A stretch of DNA of 64,000 nt, from the UHGV virus genome UHGV-0141727; one strand, written 5' to 3'. A program made the translations under genes and the position numbers. This DNA comes from a virus. Position 1 is the first letter of the stretch. Each line of letters opens with the position of its first letter. Below, one piece after another: positions 1,299 to 52,227 of the stretch. The notes beneath the pieces were generated by a model that had not been told where the DNA came from, did no database searches, and saw only the letters and a list, made by a program, of their open reading frames with translations.

Positions 1299-1496
1299 TC
1301 AAGTTACGATCCAATCATTACCGACTGCATCCGCCGTCGATAAATCGACTTCCCGGATCTGGTATCCATTAATACAAAACCATCCAGTGGTAGAGCTATT
1401 ATCAGGCCAGACCCATACACCAACACTCCATGCTTTACGGCGGCACACTTCAGCCTGTCCTTCCCTGATTTTTTTTACCGCCTGCATGATGTCCAT
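1299..1496 (-). CDS. DUF2829 / Tad2-like small protein
   Basis: ORF 1299..1511. Start MDIMQAV (ATG 1496) overlaps the upstream stop as TGATG. The pattern AVKKIREGxxVxRRxAW ... DLSTADAVGNDWIV matches the DUF2829 N- and C-terminal signatures as recalled. Paralogous to the C-terminus of 51286..52227. Confidence 0.55.
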   Translation of the reverse strand: MDIMQAVKKIREGQAEVCRRKAWSVGVWVWPDNSSTTGWFCINGYQIREVDLSTADAVGNDWIVT

Positions 1497-2203
1497 CACT
1501 CGCCTCCCCAACCGATTACCTGGAATTGCCCCATCCTTGGGTGATACCAGCGTTTTCCTCGGTGTTCAGCCTCCGACATCATCAGGGTAAAGGCATTCAT
1601 GAAGGGAGATAAGGCCACAATAGTACGACGCGACAATACCCCCTCTGGCGTCAAAAACTCATGCGTATCTGTGGGGATCCGGTAAGCGTTGACCAAGTTA
1701 CGGCATTTGGCTTCAGTCAGGCCGCATTTCGCCGCTAACTGGCGATAGCCAATGTAACCTTCCGGCATGTTGCCCTTCTTGATCTGCTCGACGGTTTCAG
1801 CGACCTGGCTAACCTTTGACTCAACAGCATGAAGCCGCTTTTGCTGCTGAACTGCATTCGCAGCCATTGCAGCGATCATCTCTATTTCGGTCAACGGCTG
1901 GCGTACTTGTTCTTCCAGTTCGCGCCAGCGGTCCACCAGCCGGGCGGTAAATTCGGGAGAAAGCTGCGCAACGACAATGATACTGTCACGCTTGCCTTGC
2001 TCGCCTTCGAAGAAATAGGCTTTTGTGTATTTATTAGGGCTAAGTGATTGATTATTCTCAACTGTAGCCAATGGCGTATGTTGGATAACTCCTTTAGCAA
2101 CAAGTCTTTCGATGCTGCGTTTAACATCAGAGTGACGACTTCCCACCAGTTCCGCGATCTCAATGCTGGTCATTGATGGCTTTTCGAGAATGCAGATATC
2201 CAT
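1496..2203 (-). CDS. Rha-family phage regulatory protein / antirepressor (immI-like module 1)
   Basis: N-terminal TSIEIAELVGSRHSDVxRSIERL (Phage_pRha-like). About 90% nt identity over several hundred bp to 51286..52227. Its ATG overlaps the icd-like stop (TGATG). Confidence 0.7.
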   Translation of the reverse strand: MDICILEKPSMTSIEIAELVGSRHSDVKRSIERLVAKGVIQHTPLATVENNQSLSPNKYTKAYFFEGEQGKRDSIIVVAQLSPEFTARLVDRWRELEEQVRQPLTEIEMIAAMAANAVQQQKRLHAVESKVSQVAETVEQIKKGNMPEGYIGYRQLAAKCGLTEAKCRNLVNAYRIPTDTHEFLTPEGVLSRRTIVALSPFMNAFTLMMSEAEHRGKRWYHPRMGQFQVIGWGGE

Positions 2204-2427
2204 CAGTGAGCCTCCGCAATGCCGGGATTGGTAATATTGCGATACCAGGGATTAGTGTTTGGTTGTGGGGAAGTAGAGAAACGACCAGTGAGAACGCCAT
2301 ACTGATCAGGGATCAGAGAACGGGCTTCTTTTTCAGTTGCGGCAATTGCGAAGTGATCACAATGTTTTTGCAGGGAGTGGAAACGCCAGATGAATTCTGG
2401 ACGTGAGCAAGGATTGGCATTAACCAT
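2203..2427 (-). CDS. icd: Icd-like (host cell division inhibitor-like) small protein
   Basis: C-terminal 74 codons of ORF 2203..2751. ATG 2427 is preceded by GAGG. EFIWRF...AATEKEARSL motif as in Icd-like proteins. Position upstream of, and coupled to, the antirepressor as in P1 icd-ant. Confidence 0.6.
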   Translation of the reverse strand: MVNANPCSRPEFIWRFHSLQKHCDHFAIAATEKEARSLIPDQYGVLTGRFSTSPQPNTNPWYRNITNPGIAEAH

Positions 2428-2483
2428 AGTTACGGCCTCATGTACAGGTTTAACAACCTGCAACCCGCTGCTAAACGGGTGGC

Positions 2484-2551
2484 AGGACGTGACGGGGTTA
2501 GCAGACTGGCGTACATGAAACCAGCAGGCCGAAGCCTCCCCATCACGCCCC
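2484..2551 (-). ncRNA. c4: c4-like antisense RNA (module 1)
   Basis: 68 nt with a 14-bp closing stem (GGGGCGUGAUGGGG / CCCCGUCACGUCCU). Contains an AGGC-UUCG-GCCU hairpin and a CUGG/CCAG hairpin with an 11-nt loop carrying CAUGUAC. Single-stranded CUGCUAA follows, and 3' GCCA. The loop and single-stranded boxes are complementary to boxes at 2642-2636/2628-2622 and 2474-2468/2445-2438. Confidence 0.6.
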
Positions 2552-2583
2552 ACCATAATTTGGGCGTAACGTGGTTTACGGAC

Positions 2584-2614
2584 ACAAAAATACCGCAATA
2601 TCGGATATCTGCGG
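2584..2614 (-). terminator. terminator-like hairpin between the a1/b1 boxes and the c4-like RNA
   Basis: Minus strand CCGCAGAUAU-CCG-AUAUUGCGG followed by UAUUUUUGUGU. An analogous element is present in module 2. Confidence 0.4.
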
Positions 2615-2742
2615 TTGTCCGCATGTACATTCAGGCTGCTAAACCCGGTCGCAGAATTTGCTACGACGGCATGAATATAAGCCTGAACATTAGAAAGATC
2701 AACAGAATTTTTATCAGATGCTGTTTTTTTGTGACGATGTAA

Positions 2743-2788
2743 ATCATACATTCCTGATTAGAAACATCAATTTAATTTTCTAACACAC
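2743..2788 (-). promoter_or_regulatory. promoter-operator of immI-like module 1
   Basis: Minus strand GTGTGTTAGAAAAT-taaaTTGATGTTTCTAATCA-ggaatg-TATGAT. The -35 is TTGATG (2770-2765), the -10 is TATGAT (2748-2743), spacer 16. The palindromic operator overlaps the -35. Confidence 0.6.
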
Positions 2789-2842
2789 AATTACGAGCGA
2801 TGATTTTTCCGCCGCACGGTTATTGTACAGTCAATCGCAACA

Positions 2843-3802
2843 TCATCCCCGAAAGCCCTCCGGAATTGACCAGTCTTCCCGGTCAAATTCAGACCGATAG
2901 CCACGCTGTTTCATCTGGTCAAATGCTTCATTGATGGTTGCACATCCCTGGGAACCAGAATAATCCATAGAGAAATCCAGGGCGCTGGATCGTTTGGGCT
3001 TATTCACCGTGGTAGCACTACGTATCCATGCAAATTTTTTTGCCAGTTTTTCAGCGGTACGATACAGAGCCTGCCGTTTTGCGTACCCCTCGTCTGAACG
3101 ACGCTTTGCAGCTCTCGCTTTTGCCGCCGCCAAACAGTGGTTGGTATGTTCTTCCCTGATTACTGTTTTTTTATCCAGCAAGCCATTATCCGCTTGAGAA
3201 CTATCTGCTGGTGAAGCCTTTGGCTGAACCGCGCATGATCTTTCTCTTCTTTTGGCTATAGAGTGACTCTTATTTTCTATTGGCTGTTCATTTTGAACAT
3301 GGGGGGACTTGTTCAATTTGAACAGGGGGTGCCCAGTTTCAAAAAAATAACGAACCTTTGAAATCAACTGCTTAACCAGTTTTGTGGCGTTGGCAAATTT
3401 GATGCCCTGCTTACTCCCTATCTCCATTGCTACATGAATGAAGTGGAGAAATTGTGTTGTAAACCGGTACACGTTACACACCTGAGCATTGTTATTCGCT
3501 ACCTGATGCTGCTTAACAAGCATTCCGCACTTCGTCGCTTCGGTAAATGCCCGGCGCACAGTAGAAATACTGCGTCCTGTAATCTCGGACATATCAGCAT
3601 ATGAGCGACGGATCATGTATTCATCGGTAGCTCCTGCCAGGTTGGCGAACTCGGCAATAATGGCGCTATGTGAAGGGGAAAGAAAACCGCTATGACGAGC
3701 AAAAAAACTCAACTGATGACCTTTGATTTTTTTGTGGTATTCAGTGTTGTTTTTATACTCAGAAGTGTTGAAAGTTACTGGAACTGAATTTAAAATACTC
3801 AT
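2843..3802 (-). CDS. winged-helix DNA-binding protein of unknown role (possible RepL-like initiator or regulator)
   Basis: 319 aa. HTH-like SYADMSEITGRSISTVRRAFTEATKCGMLV with a basic C-terminal half. Lies between two operator sites; own putative promoter with ATAGATTT direct repeats at 3810-3860. Confidence 0.4.
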   Translation of the reverse strand: MSILNSVPVTFNTSEYKNNTEYHKKIKGHQLSFFARHSGFLSPSHSAIIAEFANLAGATDEYMIRRSYADMSEITGRSISTVRRAFTEATKCGMLVKQHQVANNNAQVCNVYRFTTQFLHFIHVAMEIGSKQGIKFANATKLVKQLISKVRYFFETGHPLFKLNKSPHVQNEQPIENKSHSIAKRRERSCAVQPKASPADSSQADNGLLDKKTVIREEHTNHCLAAAKARAAKRRSDEGYAKRQALYRTAEKLAKKFAWIRSATTVNKPKRSSALDFSMDYSGSQGCATINEAFDQMKQRGYRSEFDREDWSIPEGFRG

Positions 3803-3863
3803 CAGATAGTTCCGTGAAAAATCTATCTACCGTATAAATCTATGCCAGTGGATTTATACACCC

Positions 3864-3896
3864 AAAAGCCGCTACTCAGCGGCTTTTGCTTTTTTG
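3864..3896. terminator. bidirectional rho-independent terminator
   Basis: AAAAGCCGCU-ACUC-AGCGGCUUUU hairpin. Tail is UUUUGCUUUUUU on plus and a U4 tail on minus. Confidence 0.55.
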
Positions 3897-3970
3897 GCAG
3901 TCGCTACCGGAGCAGTGACCGCGATCCTACTCGATCACGTGCCGTCGGATCAACAGTGTATAAAAACACA

Positions 3971-42120: not shown

Positions 42121-42163
42121 GTAAAACTGTGTTAGAAAATAAAACTCAATTATCTAACACAGT
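42121..42163 (-). promoter_or_regulatory. promoter-operator of the rdgC / C5-MTase / dam operon
   Basis: 38-bp palindrome ACTGTGTTAGAAAAT-N8-ATTATCTAACACAGT (1 mismatch). The -35 is TTGAGT at the centre and the -10-like element is TTTTAC at 42126-42121. ATG at 42115 has no SD. Confidence 0.65.
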
Positions 42164-46080: not shown

Positions 46081-46082
46081 CA

Positions 46083-46104
46083 AAGCCCACCTTAAGGTGG
46101 GCTT
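46083..46104. terminator. hairpin terminator between convergent genes
   Basis: AAGCCCACC-UUAA-GGUGGGCUU. The U-rich tail is better on the minus strand (UUGUUAUUUU). Confidence 0.5.
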
Positions 46105-46305
46105 CGCCAGAAATTATTTTCTGGTATTCAGAACGCCATTACCGGACTTTGCCTTGACCAAGTATCACAACTGGTTTGACCTGTTATGATAGCTGGTTGC
46201 GGGATGTCTGAATTTCTTCAGTCTGCTGCATCCTCGAAGGTTTGGTTCAACATGTACCATTCCTTCACCGTCATAATAGTGTACTATTCACGTCCTTGCA
46301 AACAC

Positions 46306-51285: not shown

Positions 51286-52227
51286 TTAACTAATAATCCA
51301 GTCGGTTGCTGCTACATCTTCTGGCTGCAAATCAATCGCACAGATCTTACCGTCGCGAATGGTGCGCCAGTTTTTCCGTGAGCCTCTTTCGGGCCATACC
51401 CAGACACTTTCAGGCCAGGATGCTCGACGGCATACGGTTGCATACCCTGTTTTAATCTTCTCTCTGGCGGTATGCAACGACAGGTTTGCCTTTGGACTTT
51501 CAGGCACAGGATGGTGAATGGCCTGAAATAGCCCCATCTTGGGATGATACCAGCGTTTGTTACGTGGTTCTGCCTCCGACATAACCTGCTTAAAGGCTTT
51601 CCGGAAGGGGGCCAGGGCCACAATGGAACGTCGCGCAAGCAAACCGTCGGGAGTTAAAAACTCATGCGTATCAGTGGGTATCCGGTAAGCGTTGACCAGG
51701 TTACGGCATTTGGCTTCAGTCAGGCCACATTTCGCCGCCAACTGGCGGTAGCCAATGTAGCCTTCCGGAATATTGCCTTTCTTGATCTGCTCGACGGTTT
51801 CAGCGACTTTGGACACTTGTGCCGATACTTCGGCTACCTGGGCATTAACGGCGTTGATCCGGCGTTCATGCTCAAGATGCATTTGCGCCATTTCAGCCAG
51901 AATTTCGGCTTTTGATTTTAACTGTGCCCGGGCATTCTCCAGTTCGCGCCAGCGGTCCACCAGCCGGGCGGTGAATTCGGGAGAGAGCTGCGCGACGACA
52001 ATAATGCTGTCTCGTTTGCCTTGCTCGCCTTCAAAGACATAGACCGGATCTTTGACAACCTTCCCTAAGTTATTGATTCTTTCGACGAACTCATTTTGAG
52101 TTTCTCGGATGACACCGCTCGCCATCATATTGCGAATGGTACGTAAAACGTTGCCATGACGACTACCAACTAACTCTGCAATATCCAGGCTATTCATTGT
52201 AGCTTTTTGGGTGATAGACAGATTCAT
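51286..52227 (-). CDS. Rha-family antirepressor fused to C-terminal DUF2829/Tad2-like domain (immI-like module 2)
   Basis: 313 aa. N-terminus NSLDIAELVGSRHGNVLRTIRNM. The middle is about 90% identical to 1496..2203. C-terminus REKIKTGYATVCRRASW...DLQPEDVAATDWIIS parallels ORF 1299..1496. Confidence 0.7.
   Translation of the reverse strand: MNLSITQKATMNSLDIAELVGSRHGNVLRTIRNMMASGVIRETQNEFVERINNLGKVVKDPVYVFEGEQGKRDSIIVVAQLSPEFTARLVDRWRELENARAQLKSKAEILAEMAQMHLEHERRINAVNAQVAEVSAQVSKVAETVEQIKKGNIPEGYIGYRQLAAKCGLTEAKCRNLVNAYRIPTDTHEFLTPDGLLARRSIVALAPFRKAFKQVMSEAEPRNKRWYHPKMGLFQAIHHPVPESPKANLSLHTAREKIKTGYATVCRRASWPESVWVWPERGSRKNWRTIRDGKICAIDLQPEDVAATDWIIS

What the first reader, a model, noticed from the sequence alone, without database searches (positions are those of the whole stretch)
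2203..2788. immI-like module 1: c4-type antisense RNA circuit in front of icd-like and antirepressor genes
Reading the minus strand, the order of elements is as follows.
- An operator-embedded promoter: TTGATG, N16, TATGAT at 2770-2743.
- Target boxes a1 UUAGCAG (2642-2636) and b1 GUACAUG (2628-2622).
- A terminator-like hairpin.
- A 68-nt element (2551-2484) that folds into a 14-bp closing stem, a UUCG hairpin and a second hairpin. The second hairpin's loop carries CAUGUAC (b'), and single-stranded CUGCUAA (a') follows it.
- A 3' GCCA directly after the closing stem.
- Boxes a2 UUAGCAG (2474-2468) and b2 GUACAUGA (2445-2438). Box b2 abuts the GAGG SD of the icd-like ORF (ATG 2427).

The icd-like stop overlaps the antirepressor ATG (TGATG). 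This is the logic described for P1/P7 c4-icd-ant, but here it sits on an unrelated RNA sequence and drives a Rha-type antirepressor.
Basis: partly seen in the sequence, partly recalled or inferred. Interest (0 to 1): 0.8.

Follow-up and report, generated by a model that had tools for sequence, protein, structure and literature searches.

The report
P1-type C4 antisense immunity cassette
This is the well-known phage P1/P7 "immI" switch, in which a small antisense RNA (C4) silences a cell-division inhibitor gene and an antirepressor gene; here it sits in a D6-like plasmid-prophage with its own recognition code, so it is a genuine but ordinary member of a described system, not a new RNA.

Summary
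The claim that made it interesting, that the logic sits "on an unrelated RNA sequence", is wrong.

- **RNA identity.** Rfam C4 (RF01695) hits 2475-2560(-) at 71.7 bits (gathering 45). Rfam c4-a1b1 (RF03163) hits 2628-2680(-) at 53.9 bits.
- **Homology.** Window 2702-2316 is 87-89% identical in DNA to the P1/P7 c4-icd region.
- **Source.** The window is a D6-like phage-plasmid: 91% to phage D6, up to 96% to E. coli plasmids. The repL → c4 → icd → Rha-type Ant order is standard for that group and already noted in print (PMC6799933).
- **Variable parts.** Only the recognition boxes differ. Here a is the P7 allele (UUAGCAG) and b is GUACAUG. In 117 of 118 complete homologous loci, b1 = b2 = complement of b' and a1 = a2 = complement of a'.
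- **Corrections.** By homology the mature RNA is 2554-2478 (77 nt), not 68 nt. A second promoter homologous to P1 P51b lies at 2702-2674. The 182-codon ORF is not conserved.

Verdict: new member of a known kind; low interest.

The parts
2772..2787 (-). Operator-like 16-bp motif TGTGTTAGAAAATTAA. It ends 1 nt before the -35 hexamer and is the putative binding site of the D6-type C1 repressor.
   Evidence: 9 copies in the window against 0.64 expected, with 0/100 shuffles reaching 9. It is conserved at the same place in D6 and present upstream of the D6 c1, lpa and cre homologues. It is found in 21 of the 124 segments examined, about the number of D6-type loci; 97 segments carry the P1 operator instead (not cross-tabulated locus by locus).
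2743..2770 (-). Upstream promoter TTGATG-N16-TATGAT. It is the positional equivalent of the operator-controlled P2c4/P51a promoter of P1.
   Evidence: The geometry matches P1 Oc4 overlapping the P2c4 -35. The sequence is not homologous to P1 here.
2674..2702 (-). Second promoter TTGATC-N17-TATATT, homologous to P1 P1c4/P51b.
   Evidence: It aligns column for column with the annotated P1 promoter TTGACC...TATAGT and is listed by the promoter scan. P1/P7 DNA homology starts exactly here at 2702.
2628..2680 (-). c4-a1b1 leader motif with a1 UUAGCAG (2642-2636) in a hairpin loop. b1 GUACAUG (2628-2622) directly follows.
   Evidence: Rfam RF03163 at 53.9 bits (gathering 46.7), E = 8e-11. a1 and b1 are complementary to a' and b'.
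2578..2622 (-). Terminator-like hairpin (2615-2592) plus a U-run (2591-2582), enclosed by the outer helix GCGGACA/UGUCCGU.
   Evidence: Fold gives -17.6 kcal/mol. The stretch is almost invariant between the window, D6, P1 and P7.
2478..2554 (-). Predicted mature C4 antisense RNA, 77 nt. b' CAUGUAC is at 2517-2511 in a hairpin loop; a' CUGCUAA is at 2504-2498, single-stranded.
   Evidence: Rfam RF01695 at 71.7 bits (gathering 45) over 2560-2475. The ends are taken from gap-free alignment to the c4 misc_RNA annotated in P1. MFE is -44.9 kcal/mol. In the stems, 99.8% of cells are paired and 10/26 pairs show changes on both sides.
2436..2474 (-). Target region of the icd mRNA: a2 UUAGCAG (2474-2468), b2 GUACAUGA (2445-2438), SD GAGG (2439-2436).
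   Evidence: It is homologous to the a2 and b2 sites annotated in P1. Predicted own b':b2 duplex is -12.0 kcal/mol, against -1.6 to -5.8 with the other b' alleles.
2203..2427 (-). icd-like gene (74 codons). Its stop overlaps the next start (TGATG).
   Evidence: NCBIfam NF033153 at 40 bits (cutoff 25). 61% identity to P1 Icd. PHROG 1426 at 5.7e-39.
1496..2203 (-). Rha-domain putative antirepressor (235 aa).
   Evidence: Pfam Phage_pRha. PHROG 63 'anti-repressor Ant'. 87% identical to D6 gp109, annotated 'anti-repressor Ant'. No significant similarity to P1 Ant1 or KilA.
1299..1496 (-). Third small gene (65 aa from the ATG at 1496), again joined by a TGATG overlap. It is probably part of the same operon.
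   Evidence: It corresponds to D6 orf17 and matches PHROG 7385. It is 38% identical to the C-terminal 65 aa of the module-2 antirepressor.

Best explanation
The region is the orthologue, in a D6-like P1-related phage-plasmid, of the immI cassette of phages P1 and P7.

**Shown here (sequence and comparative evidence).**
- Two tandem promoters are present. The upstream one is flanked by a backbone-specific repressor operator motif. The downstream one is homologous to P1 P51b.
- They would transcribe a leader (a1, b1, terminator-like hairpin), then the C4 RNA, then icd, a Rha-type antirepressor gene and a small third gene.
- The boxes a' and b' of the C4 RNA are complementary to a2/b2. Box b2 overlaps the Shine-Dalgarno sequence of icd.
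- The stop of icd overlaps the start of ant, and the stop of ant overlaps the start of the third gene.

**Inferred from published P1/P7 work** (Citron & Schuster 1990, 1992; Hartmann et al. 1995; Heinrich et al. 1994, as cited in PMC8198154, PMC12197685, PMC2190699 and PMC8546580).
- The 77-nt C4 RNA is cut out of the same transcript; RNase P makes its 5' end.
- C4 pairs through a' and b' with a2/b2 and blocks icd translation.
- Because ant expression is coupled to icd translation, blocking icd also silences the antirepressor, which keeps the prophage repressed.
- When C4 is outrun or titrated, Icd and Ant are made and Ant antagonises the C1-type repressor.

**Specificity.** The 7-nt boxes set specificity (heteroimmunity). 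This element carries the P7 'a' allele and a 'b' allele (GUACAUG) different from those of P1, P7 and D6.
For: - **RNA family hits.** Rfam C4 at 71.7 bits and c4-a1b1 at 53.9 bits, both above their gathering scores.
- **DNA homology.** 87-89% identity to P1, P7 and other P1-like phages over window 2702-2316. The scaffold is identical outside the boxes.
- **Structure.** The fold is stable, and the stems are supported by covariation: 10 of 26 pairs change on both sides, 99.8% of cells are paired, and 0/500 shuffles reach this.
- **Box covariation.** Three-way box complementarity holds in 117/118 loci across 2 a alleles and 6 b alleles. Further b alleles occur in the closest plasmid and in two diverged relatives, again matched three ways.
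- **Orthogonality.** Predicted duplex energies are orthogonal: about -12 kcal/mol for own pairs, -7 or weaker for cross pairs.
- **Proteins.** Icd family membership. Rha/Ant family membership.
- **Operator.** The operator motif is dispersed through the window and backbone-specific.
- **Literature.** A D6-like plasmid is described as having an ImmI-related region with c4, icd and antirepressor plus a second c4/icd region (PMC6799933).
Against: - No expression data exist for this element. RNA processing, translational repression and coupling are all transferred from P1/P7.
- The downstream protein is not homologous to P1 Ant1/Ant2. Its antirepressor activity against a D6-type C1 is annotation-level only; D6 calls it 'similar to HK97 Roi'.
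- The C1-type repressor gene is not inside this window; it lies in the part of D6 that the window does not cover.
- The promoter hexamers alone are no better than chance: 5 found against 4.3 expected.
- Stem covariation rests on few independent lineages and on an alignment fitted to the model.
Confidence: 0.9

Rival explanations
1. One reading: an independently evolved (convergent) antisense circuit on an RNA unrelated to P1/P7 C4, which copies only the logic.
For: Upstream of 2702 and downstream of about 2316 the sequence is indeed not P1-like. The antirepressor is non-homologous to P1 Ant1.
Against: The RNA itself, the leader, the terminator-like hairpin, the a2/b2 region and the 5' half of icd are 87-89% identical to P1/P7. 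Both Rfam C4 and c4-a1b1 score above their gathering thresholds.
Confidence: 0.01
2. The 182-codon ORF 2751..2203 is a real protein-coding gene, and the 'RNA' features are incidental.
For: The frame is open across the whole region in this window. Historically c4 was annotated as a CDS in an old P1 record (X15639).
Against: - Its ATG (2751) lies upstream of the -10 of the upstream promoter, so transcripts from either promoter lack it.
- In 102 of 122 homologues an in-frame stop lies 12-15 codons upstream of the icd ATG.
- The 182-aa product has no Pfam hit.
- The region matches two RNA families.
- Variation is confined to the RNA recognition boxes and is compensated at the RNA level, not the codon level.
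Confidence: 0.02
3. C4 here acts mainly as a termination or attenuation factor, as P4 CI RNA does on seqA/seqC, rather than by blocking the icd ribosome-binding site. Alternatively, the a1/b1 leader terminated at the hairpin is an IsrK-like short RNA that titrates C4 and switches icd/ant on. In both versions a1/b1 and the hairpin at 2615-2582 are the regulatory core.
For: - a1/b1 plus the terminator-like hairpin are as conserved as C4 itself and covary with it.
- In module 2 of the same window the equivalent leader is an Rfam isrK hit with a clean terminator.
- In Gifsy-1, short IsrK activates orf45/anrP translation. A processed ~80-nt RNA (STnc1160) lies downstream, and the authors themselves compare it with P4 CI (PMC4825925).
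Against: - b2 overlaps the SD of icd, which fits direct translational repression.
- P1 literature assigns repression to a2/b2, and the P1 annotation calls a1/b1 only 'putative' targets.
- The hairpin has a bulge and a broken U-run, and the scan did not call it a terminator.
- The two mechanisms are not mutually exclusive.
Confidence: 0.2
4. The downstream Rha-domain protein is not an antirepressor of the C1-type repressor. It is instead another lytic regulator, such as a Roi- or KilA-like DNA-binding protein, so the module controls something other than repressor inactivation.
For: There is no similarity to P1 Ant1/Ant2. The D6 annotation says 'similar to HK97 Roi protein'. The N-terminus is a winged-helix/Rha DNA-binding domain.
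Against: The best PHROG families are annotated anti-repressor. The gene occupies exactly the ant slot behind icd. A paralogous module in the same plasmid has the same architecture.
Confidence: 0.25

Closest known systems
immI operon of phages P1 and P7 (c4 - icd - ant1/ant2; C4 antisense RNA, Rfam RF01695 and c4-a1b1 RF03163)
   Same: - The cassette is homologous (87-89% DNA identity) from the P51b-type promoter through a1/b1, the hairpin, C4 and a2/b2 into the first half of icd.
- The box order is the same: a1, b1, b', a', a2, b2.
- b2 lies on the icd SD, and the icd stop overlaps the start of the next gene.
- A repressor operator sits next to the -35 of an upstream second promoter.
   Different: - The b specificity allele is GUACAUG, against GUUAGUG in P1 and GAUUGUG in P7. 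The a allele equals that of P7.
- The operator is a D6-type motif, not the P1 consensus ATTGCTCTAATAAATTT, which gives 0 matches at up to 3 mismatches.
- The antirepressor is a non-homologous Rha-domain protein plus a small extra ORF.
- The gene neighbourhood is repL upstream, rather than kilA-repL downstream and sim upstream.
Phage D6 and D6-like plasmid prophages (e.g. pYU39_89, pEC361_3)
   Same: The locus is the same in the same order: pro - repL - c4 - icd - Rha-type Ant - orf17 - lysozyme-like gene. Identity is 91-96% over 2.5 kb. D6 shares the operator motif. D6 also has a second place matching this query, consistent with the second c4/icd module in this window and with the second module reported for pYU39_89 (PMC6799933).
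   Different: The recognition boxes differ. D6 has a = UUGACAG and b = ACUUACG. pEC361_3 has b = ACUCAUG. The window has a = UUAGCAG and b = GUACAUG. In the IMG/VR sample this allele pair was seen on a D6-type backbone only in the window itself.
Gifsy-1 isrK - STnc1160 - orf45 - anrP locus of Salmonella (and module 2 of this window at 52707-51286)
   Same: Same architecture: a leader with two target boxes and a terminator, then a processed C4-family RNA, then a small coupled ORF, then an antirepressor (PMC4825925).
   Different: It is a diverged branch of the C4 family. My model scores it 35.6 bits against 111.7 for module 1. Its leader matches Rfam isrK, not c4-a1b1. The published mechanism for IsrK is activation by the short leader RNA.
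P4 CI RNA immunity (seqA / seqC)
   Same: An RNA processed from the leader of the operon it controls, with target sites both upstream and downstream of itself (as summarised in PMC4825925).
   Different: CI works by premature transcription termination of replication genes. No sequence comparison with P4 was made here.

Membership tests
Rfam RF01695 C4 antisense RNA | Covariance-model score at or above the curated gathering score (45 bits), full-length match | tested here: met
   71.7 bits, E = 5.3e-12, model positions 1-87 of 87, window 2560-2475(-).
Rfam RF01695 C4 antisense RNA | Long closing stem enclosing two hairpins, with stems supported by compensatory changes | tested here: met
   The MFE structure matches. 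26 pairs, 99.8% of cells paired, 10 pairs with changes on both sides, 0/500 shuffles. Caveat: the alignment is fitted to the model and the lineages are few.
Rfam RF03163 c4-a1b1 | Covariance-model score at or above the gathering score (46.7 bits), located upstream of a C4 RNA | tested here: met
   53.9 bits, model positions 1-53 of 53, window 2680-2628(-), 68 nt upstream of the C4 hit.
P1/P7-type immI operon | a'/b' of C4 complementary to a2/b2 in the icd leader, with b2 at the ribosome-binding site | tested here: met
   Read directly. Holds in 117/118 homologous loci. Duplex energies.
P1/P7-type immI operon | icd gene immediately downstream of c4 and translationally coupled to the next gene | tested here: met
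   NCBIfam phage_ICD_like at 40 bits against a cutoff of 25. 61% identity to P1 Icd. TGATG overlap at 2205-2201. Coupling itself is inferred from the overlap.
P1/P7-type immI operon | Ant1/Ant2-type antirepressor as the regulated cargo | tested here: not met
   No significant BLASTP similarity to P1 Ant1 or KilA; best E = 0.19. The cargo is a Rha-domain protein.
P1/P7-type immI operon | C1 operator (consensus ATTGCTCTAATAAATTT) at the upstream promoter | tested here: not met
   0 matches at up to 3 mismatches in the whole window. A different dispersed 16-bp motif occupies the equivalent position.
P1/P7-type immI operon | C4 released as a 77-nt RNA by processing (RNase P 5' end) and acting in trans | not testable with these tools
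   Only homology to the annotated P1 misc_RNA is available. Northern blot, RNA-seq or an RNase P assay is needed.
Pfam PF09669 Phage_pRha | Whole-protein score above the gathering threshold (29.9 bits) | tested here: met
   34.4 bits, residues 11-98, profile positions 1-91 of 91.
D6-like phage-plasmid immI locus | Synteny repL - c4 - icd - Rha-type ant - small ORF, with high DNA identity to D6 | tested here: met
   100% query cover at 91.1% to D6, and up to 96.4% to plasmids. Annotation.

The most novel reading that the evidence does not exclude
The P1-type C4 cassette may behave as a portable, combinatorial RNA 'immunity barcode'.

- On one nearly invariant scaffold there are at least 2 'a' alleles and at least 7 'b' alleles. 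Each is kept matched at three separate sites. 11 of the 12 combinations of the 2 a alleles and the first 6 b alleles are observed.
- The same alleles occur on P1-like backbones (Ant1 cargo, P1 operator) and on D6-like backbones (Rha-type cargo, D6 operator).
- If so, C4 specificity would define cross-family superinfection-immunity groups among E. coli phage-plasmids.
- Close relatives would escape each other by coordinated three-site box switches. The window and pEC361_3 are 96% identical yet carry different b alleles.
- As an added speculation, the a1/b1 leader ending at the hairpin may be an IsrK-like anti-antisense RNA.

I could not read the D6 genome paper (Gilcrease & Casjens 2018), so part of this may already be described.
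Probability: 0.3. Interest if true: 0.5.

Novelty: new member of a known kind. Interest (0 to 1): 0.22.

Why it matters
For annotation, the c4 RNA gene and its target boxes are not annotated in phage D6 or in the plasmid records inspected; only icd and the Rha-family protein are. Naming it correctly explains an otherwise 'empty' 400-bp gap between repL and icd.

Biologically it adds nothing fundamental to the P1/P7 immI model. Its modest value is comparative. This element carries a b-box allele different from P1, P7 and D6. The population data show that the boxes are the only fast-evolving part of the cassette. That predicts which phage-plasmids are immune to which, and gives a ready set of natural orthogonal antisense RNA/target pairs.

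Tried and rejected
1. **Papers not held.** I tried to read the primary sources: Gilcrease & Casjens 2018 (PMC5800970), Lobocka et al. 2004 (PMC523184), Hartmann et al. 1995 (PMC41593) and Riedel et al. 1993 (PMC204598). None is in the library. Statements about P1/P7 mechanism therefore rest on secondary citations and on the P1 GenBank annotation.
2. **P1 operator.** A search for the P1 C1 operator consensus in the window gave no match. I then searched for repeats of the promoter-proximal sequence and found the D6-type motif.
3. **C1 and Coi.** tblastn of P1 C1 and Coi against the window gave nothing. The D6 c1 homologue lies at D6 227-1264, outside the part of D6 that the window covers.
4. **Misaligned MAFFT alignment.** MAFFT alignment of modules 1 and 2 (A2) was not structure-consistent and was dropped. 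It was replaced by a covariance-model alignment.
5. **Species-representative genomes.** The scan gave only 3 hits. One is labelled a Bacillota MAG, probably contamination, so it says little about host range. Plasmid hits show Escherichia, Salmonella, Klebsiella, Shigella and Cronobacter.
6. **Extra b' alleles.** Scans for b' alleles starting with C/T, G[not T] or A[A/G] found only two diverged relatives.
7. **The 182-codon ORF** was rejected as a gene.
Full report

Yes. Reading the minus strand, every hexamer and box sits at the coordinates given:
- -35 TTGATG at 2770-2765 and -10 TATGAT at 2748-2743, with a 16-nt spacer.
- a1 UUAGCAG at 2642-2636 and b1 GUACAUG at 2628-2622.
- b' CAUGUAC at 2517-2511 and a' CUGCUAA at 2504-2498.
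- a2 UUAGCAG at 2474-2468 and b2 GUACAUGA at 2445-2438, overlapping GAGG at 2439-2436.
- icd ATG at 2427, and the TGATG stop/start overlap at 2205-2201.

The stretch 2560-2470 folds into a long closing stem that encloses a UUCG hairpin and a second hairpin whose loop carries b'. The a' box is unpaired. MFE is -45.4 kcal/mol, z = -4.2, and none of 200 shuffles folds as well.

The two 7-mers are not unusually frequent in the window, at 3-6 copies per strand in 64 kb. Their clustering, two targets and one complement each within about 205 nt, is therefore not a chance pattern.

**2. What is it?**

- The Rfam C4 model (RF01695) matches 2560-2475(-) full-length at 71.7 bits (gathering 45).
- The companion c4-a1b1 model (RF03163) matches 2680-2628(-) at 53.9 bits (gathering 46.7).
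- A second C4 hit, preceded by an isrK hit, lies at 52707-52497(-).

BLAST places the window in the D6 group of P1-related plasmid prophages.
- Window 1400-3900 is 91% identical to phage D6 over its full length. It is up to 96% identical to about 110 E. coli and Escherichia marmotae plasmids.
- A 387-bp core (window 2702-2316) is 87-89% identical to P1, P7, RCS47, SJ46 and other P1-like phages. There it covers the annotated c4 and icd.

A four-way alignment shows that from the P51b-type promoter to the middle of icd the window, D6, P1 and P7 are nearly identical. The exceptions are the six recognition boxes. The claim that the circuit 'sits on an unrelated RNA sequence' is therefore wrong: this is the orthologous cassette.

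**3. Anatomy, with corrections**

*The RNA.* By gap-free alignment to the c4 misc_RNA annotated in P1 (77 nt), the predicted mature RNA is 2554-2478. It is not 2551-2484. The closing stem has 16-17 pairs with one bulge on each strand. The 'GCCA' is mostly inside that stem, which leaves an ACC 3' tail (alignment).

*Two promoters.* There are two promoters, as in P1. A second one, TTGATC-N17-TATATT at 2702-2674, aligns with P1's annotated P1c4/P51b.

*The operator.* The 'operator' idea is supported, but not by the P1 operator.
- The P1 consensus is absent from the window.
- A 16-bp motif, TGTGTTAGAAAATTAA, ends one base before the -35 (2787-2772). It occurs 9 times in the window against 0.64 expected.
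- In D6 the same motif lies at the immI promoter and just upstream of the c1, lpa and cre homologues.
- Among 124 homologous segments, 21 carry this motif and 97 carry the P1 operator. These numbers match the 20 D6-type and 80 P1-type loci counted.
- Each backbone therefore seems to place its own repressor site in front of the shared cassette. That the D6-type C1 binds this motif is an inference.

*The hairpin.* Between b1 and C4 there is a hairpin (2615-2592) followed by AUUUUUGUGU. It sits inside an outer helix, at -17.6 kcal/mol, and is almost invariant across the four phages.

*The genes.*
- icd (74 codons) matches NCBIfam phage_ICD_like and is 61% identical to P1 Icd.
- The next gene (235 aa) has an N-terminal Rha domain and matches PHROG 63 'anti-repressor Ant'. 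It has no significant similarity to P1 Ant1 or KilA.
- A third small gene (1496-1299) is also joined by a TGATG overlap.

**4. Comparative tests**

- Extraction of the boxes found two 'a' alleles, UUAGCAG and UUGACAG.
- It found six 'b' alleles: GAUUGUG (the P7 allele), GUUAGUG (P1), ACUUACG (D6), GUACAUG (this window), ACGAAUG and ACUUGUG.
- In 117 of 118 complete loci, a1 = a2 = complement of a' and b1 = b2 = complement of b'.
- The closest plasmid, pEC361_3 (96.4% identical over 2.5 kb), has a seventh b allele, ACUCAUG, again matched at all three sites.
- Two diverged relatives carry ACCAAAG and GUUCAAG.
- Predicted duplex energies are about -12 kcal/mol for cognate b'/b2 pairs and -7 or weaker for non-cognate pairs.

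This is strong comparative evidence that the boxes pair as RNA.

*Stems.* A covariance model built from the window, P1, P7 and D6 recovered 104 copies, including the diverged module-2 type. On that alignment, 99.8% of cells pair and 10 of 26 pairs show changes on both sides (0/500 shuffles; slid controls reach at most 2). The caveats are that few lineages are independent and that the alignment is fitted to the model.

*The long ORF.* The 182-codon ORF is not conserved. In 102 of 122 homologues a stop lies 12-15 codons upstream of the icd ATG. The ORF's own ATG lies upstream of the promoter's -10.

**5. Mechanism**

Shown here:
- homology of all cis elements to the P1/P7 cassette;
- box complementarity and its covariation;
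- b2 lying on the icd SD;
- overlapping stop and start codons.

Inferred from P1/P7 work, cited through PMC8198154, PMC12197685, PMC2190699 and PMC8546580 and the P1 annotation:
- C4 is processed from the operon transcript; RNase P makes the 5' end.
- C4 binds a2/b2 and blocks icd translation.
- The block thereby prevents expression of the coupled antirepressor.
- Different boxes give heteroimmunity.

The role of a1/b1 and the hairpin is unsettled even in P1, where the sites are annotated 'putative'. In the related Gifsy-1 locus the equivalent short leader RNA (IsrK) activates translation of the small ORF and the antirepressor. A processed ~80-nt RNA (STnc1160) lies downstream of it (PMC4825925). 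An anti-antisense or attenuation role for the leader is therefore a live rival or addition.

**6. Comparison with the known, and novelty**

The element passes the membership tests for Rfam C4, Rfam c4-a1b1, the Icd-like family and Pfam Phage_pRha.

As a 'P1-type immI operon' it fails two features: the P1 operator sequence and the Ant1/Ant2 cargo. It works like P1 immI and shares its core by descent, but it is the D6-type variant.

That variant is already in the literature. A D6-like plasmid has been described as having an ImmI-related region with c4, icd and an antirepressor, plus a second c4/icd region (PMC6799933). D6 itself annotates icd and Ant at this place.

The particular allele pair of this window (a of P7, b = GUACAUG) also exists in public sequences. 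It occurs in 4-5 other IMG/VR contigs and in plasmid CP043746. I did not see it on another D6-type backbone. No PLSDB plasmid matches the full 210-nt a1-to-b2 stretch at more than 98.1%.

I therefore rate it a new member of a known kind.

**7. Verdict**

Interest is low (0.22).

The most novel reading not excluded is that the cassette is a combinatorial, cross-family RNA immunity barcode with coordinated three-site allele switching. It may be partly described in a paper I could not access.

Noticed in passing
window 52707-51286 (-): A second, diverged immI-type module. It runs: Rfam isrK hit (52707-52629, carrying a1 UUGGAAC and b1 GUCAAAGG plus a clean terminator), C4 hit (52584-52497, 77.1 bits, b' CCUUUGAC, a' GUUCCAA), a2 UUGGAAC and b2 GUCAAAGGAGG on the SD, a 71-aa icd-like ORF (52442-52227), a TGATG overlap, and a 313-aa Rha-type protein 63% identical to the module-1 protein. 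Its boxes are orthogonal to those of module 1.
   Followed up: partly
window 2772, 3972, 34056, 42128, 42146, 53243, 53874, 53892, 58944 (16-bp sites): A dispersed operator-like motif, TGTGTTAGAAAATTAA, with 9 copies against 0.64 expected. Two inverted pairs lie at 42128/42146 and 53874/53892. In D6 the motif also lies upstream of the c1, lpa and cre homologues. It is probably the D6-type C1 operator; the repressor gene itself is outside the window.
   Followed up: partly
window 1299-1511 (-) and 51286-51480 (-): The small ORF after the module-1 antirepressor is 38% identical to the C-terminal 65 residues of the module-2 antirepressor. The same domain is therefore a separate, translationally coupled gene in one module and is fused in the other. 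Pfam gives no hit.
   Followed up: partly
L131 (plasmid NZ_AP027414.1, pEC361_3) versus window 2436-2645: The closest relative, 96.4% identical over 2.5 kb, differs at all three b boxes (ACUCAUG / CAUGAGU). This is a coordinated three-site specificity switch between near-identical plasmids. Because the box order is a1, b1, b', a', a2, b2, swapping only b or only a needs at least two separate recombination patches or compensatory mutations. Even so, 11 of the 12 combinations of the 2 a alleles and the 6 b alleles found in the IMG/VR sample occur (this seventh allele comes on top of those).
   Followed up: partly
L044 (IMGVR_UViG_2565956613_000015): This is the only complete locus of 118 whose boxes do not match: b1 ACGAAUG and b' CAUUCGU, but b2 GUUAGUG (the P1 allele). 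It may be a recombinant whose antirepressor escapes its own C4, or an assembly chimera.
   Followed up: no
window 2757-2770 and 2689-2702 (-): The two promoters share a 14-mer, TTGAT[G/C]TTTCTAAT, made of the -35 hexamer plus the next 8 nt. This suggests a promoter duplication or a shared protein-binding site.
   Followed up: no
window 46082-46267 (-): A full-length Rfam sroH hit (113 bits) inside a plasmid-prophage. sroH is usually listed as an E. coli chromosomal sRNA.
   Followed up: no
L130 (plasmid CP043746.1, 46022-46192): The C4 RNA region is annotated there as a 56-aa 'transcriptional regulator' CDS. This is a likely mis-annotation of the RNA gene. The same a/b alleles as in the window drive an 'ORF6N domain-containing protein' in that plasmid.
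   Followed up: no
L128 (JAFAFU010000019.1): A 2.9-kb contig labelled 'MAG: Bacillota bacterium' carries this Escherichia-type C4 cassette with the D6 b allele. It is probably a mis-binned or contaminating contig.
   Followed up: no
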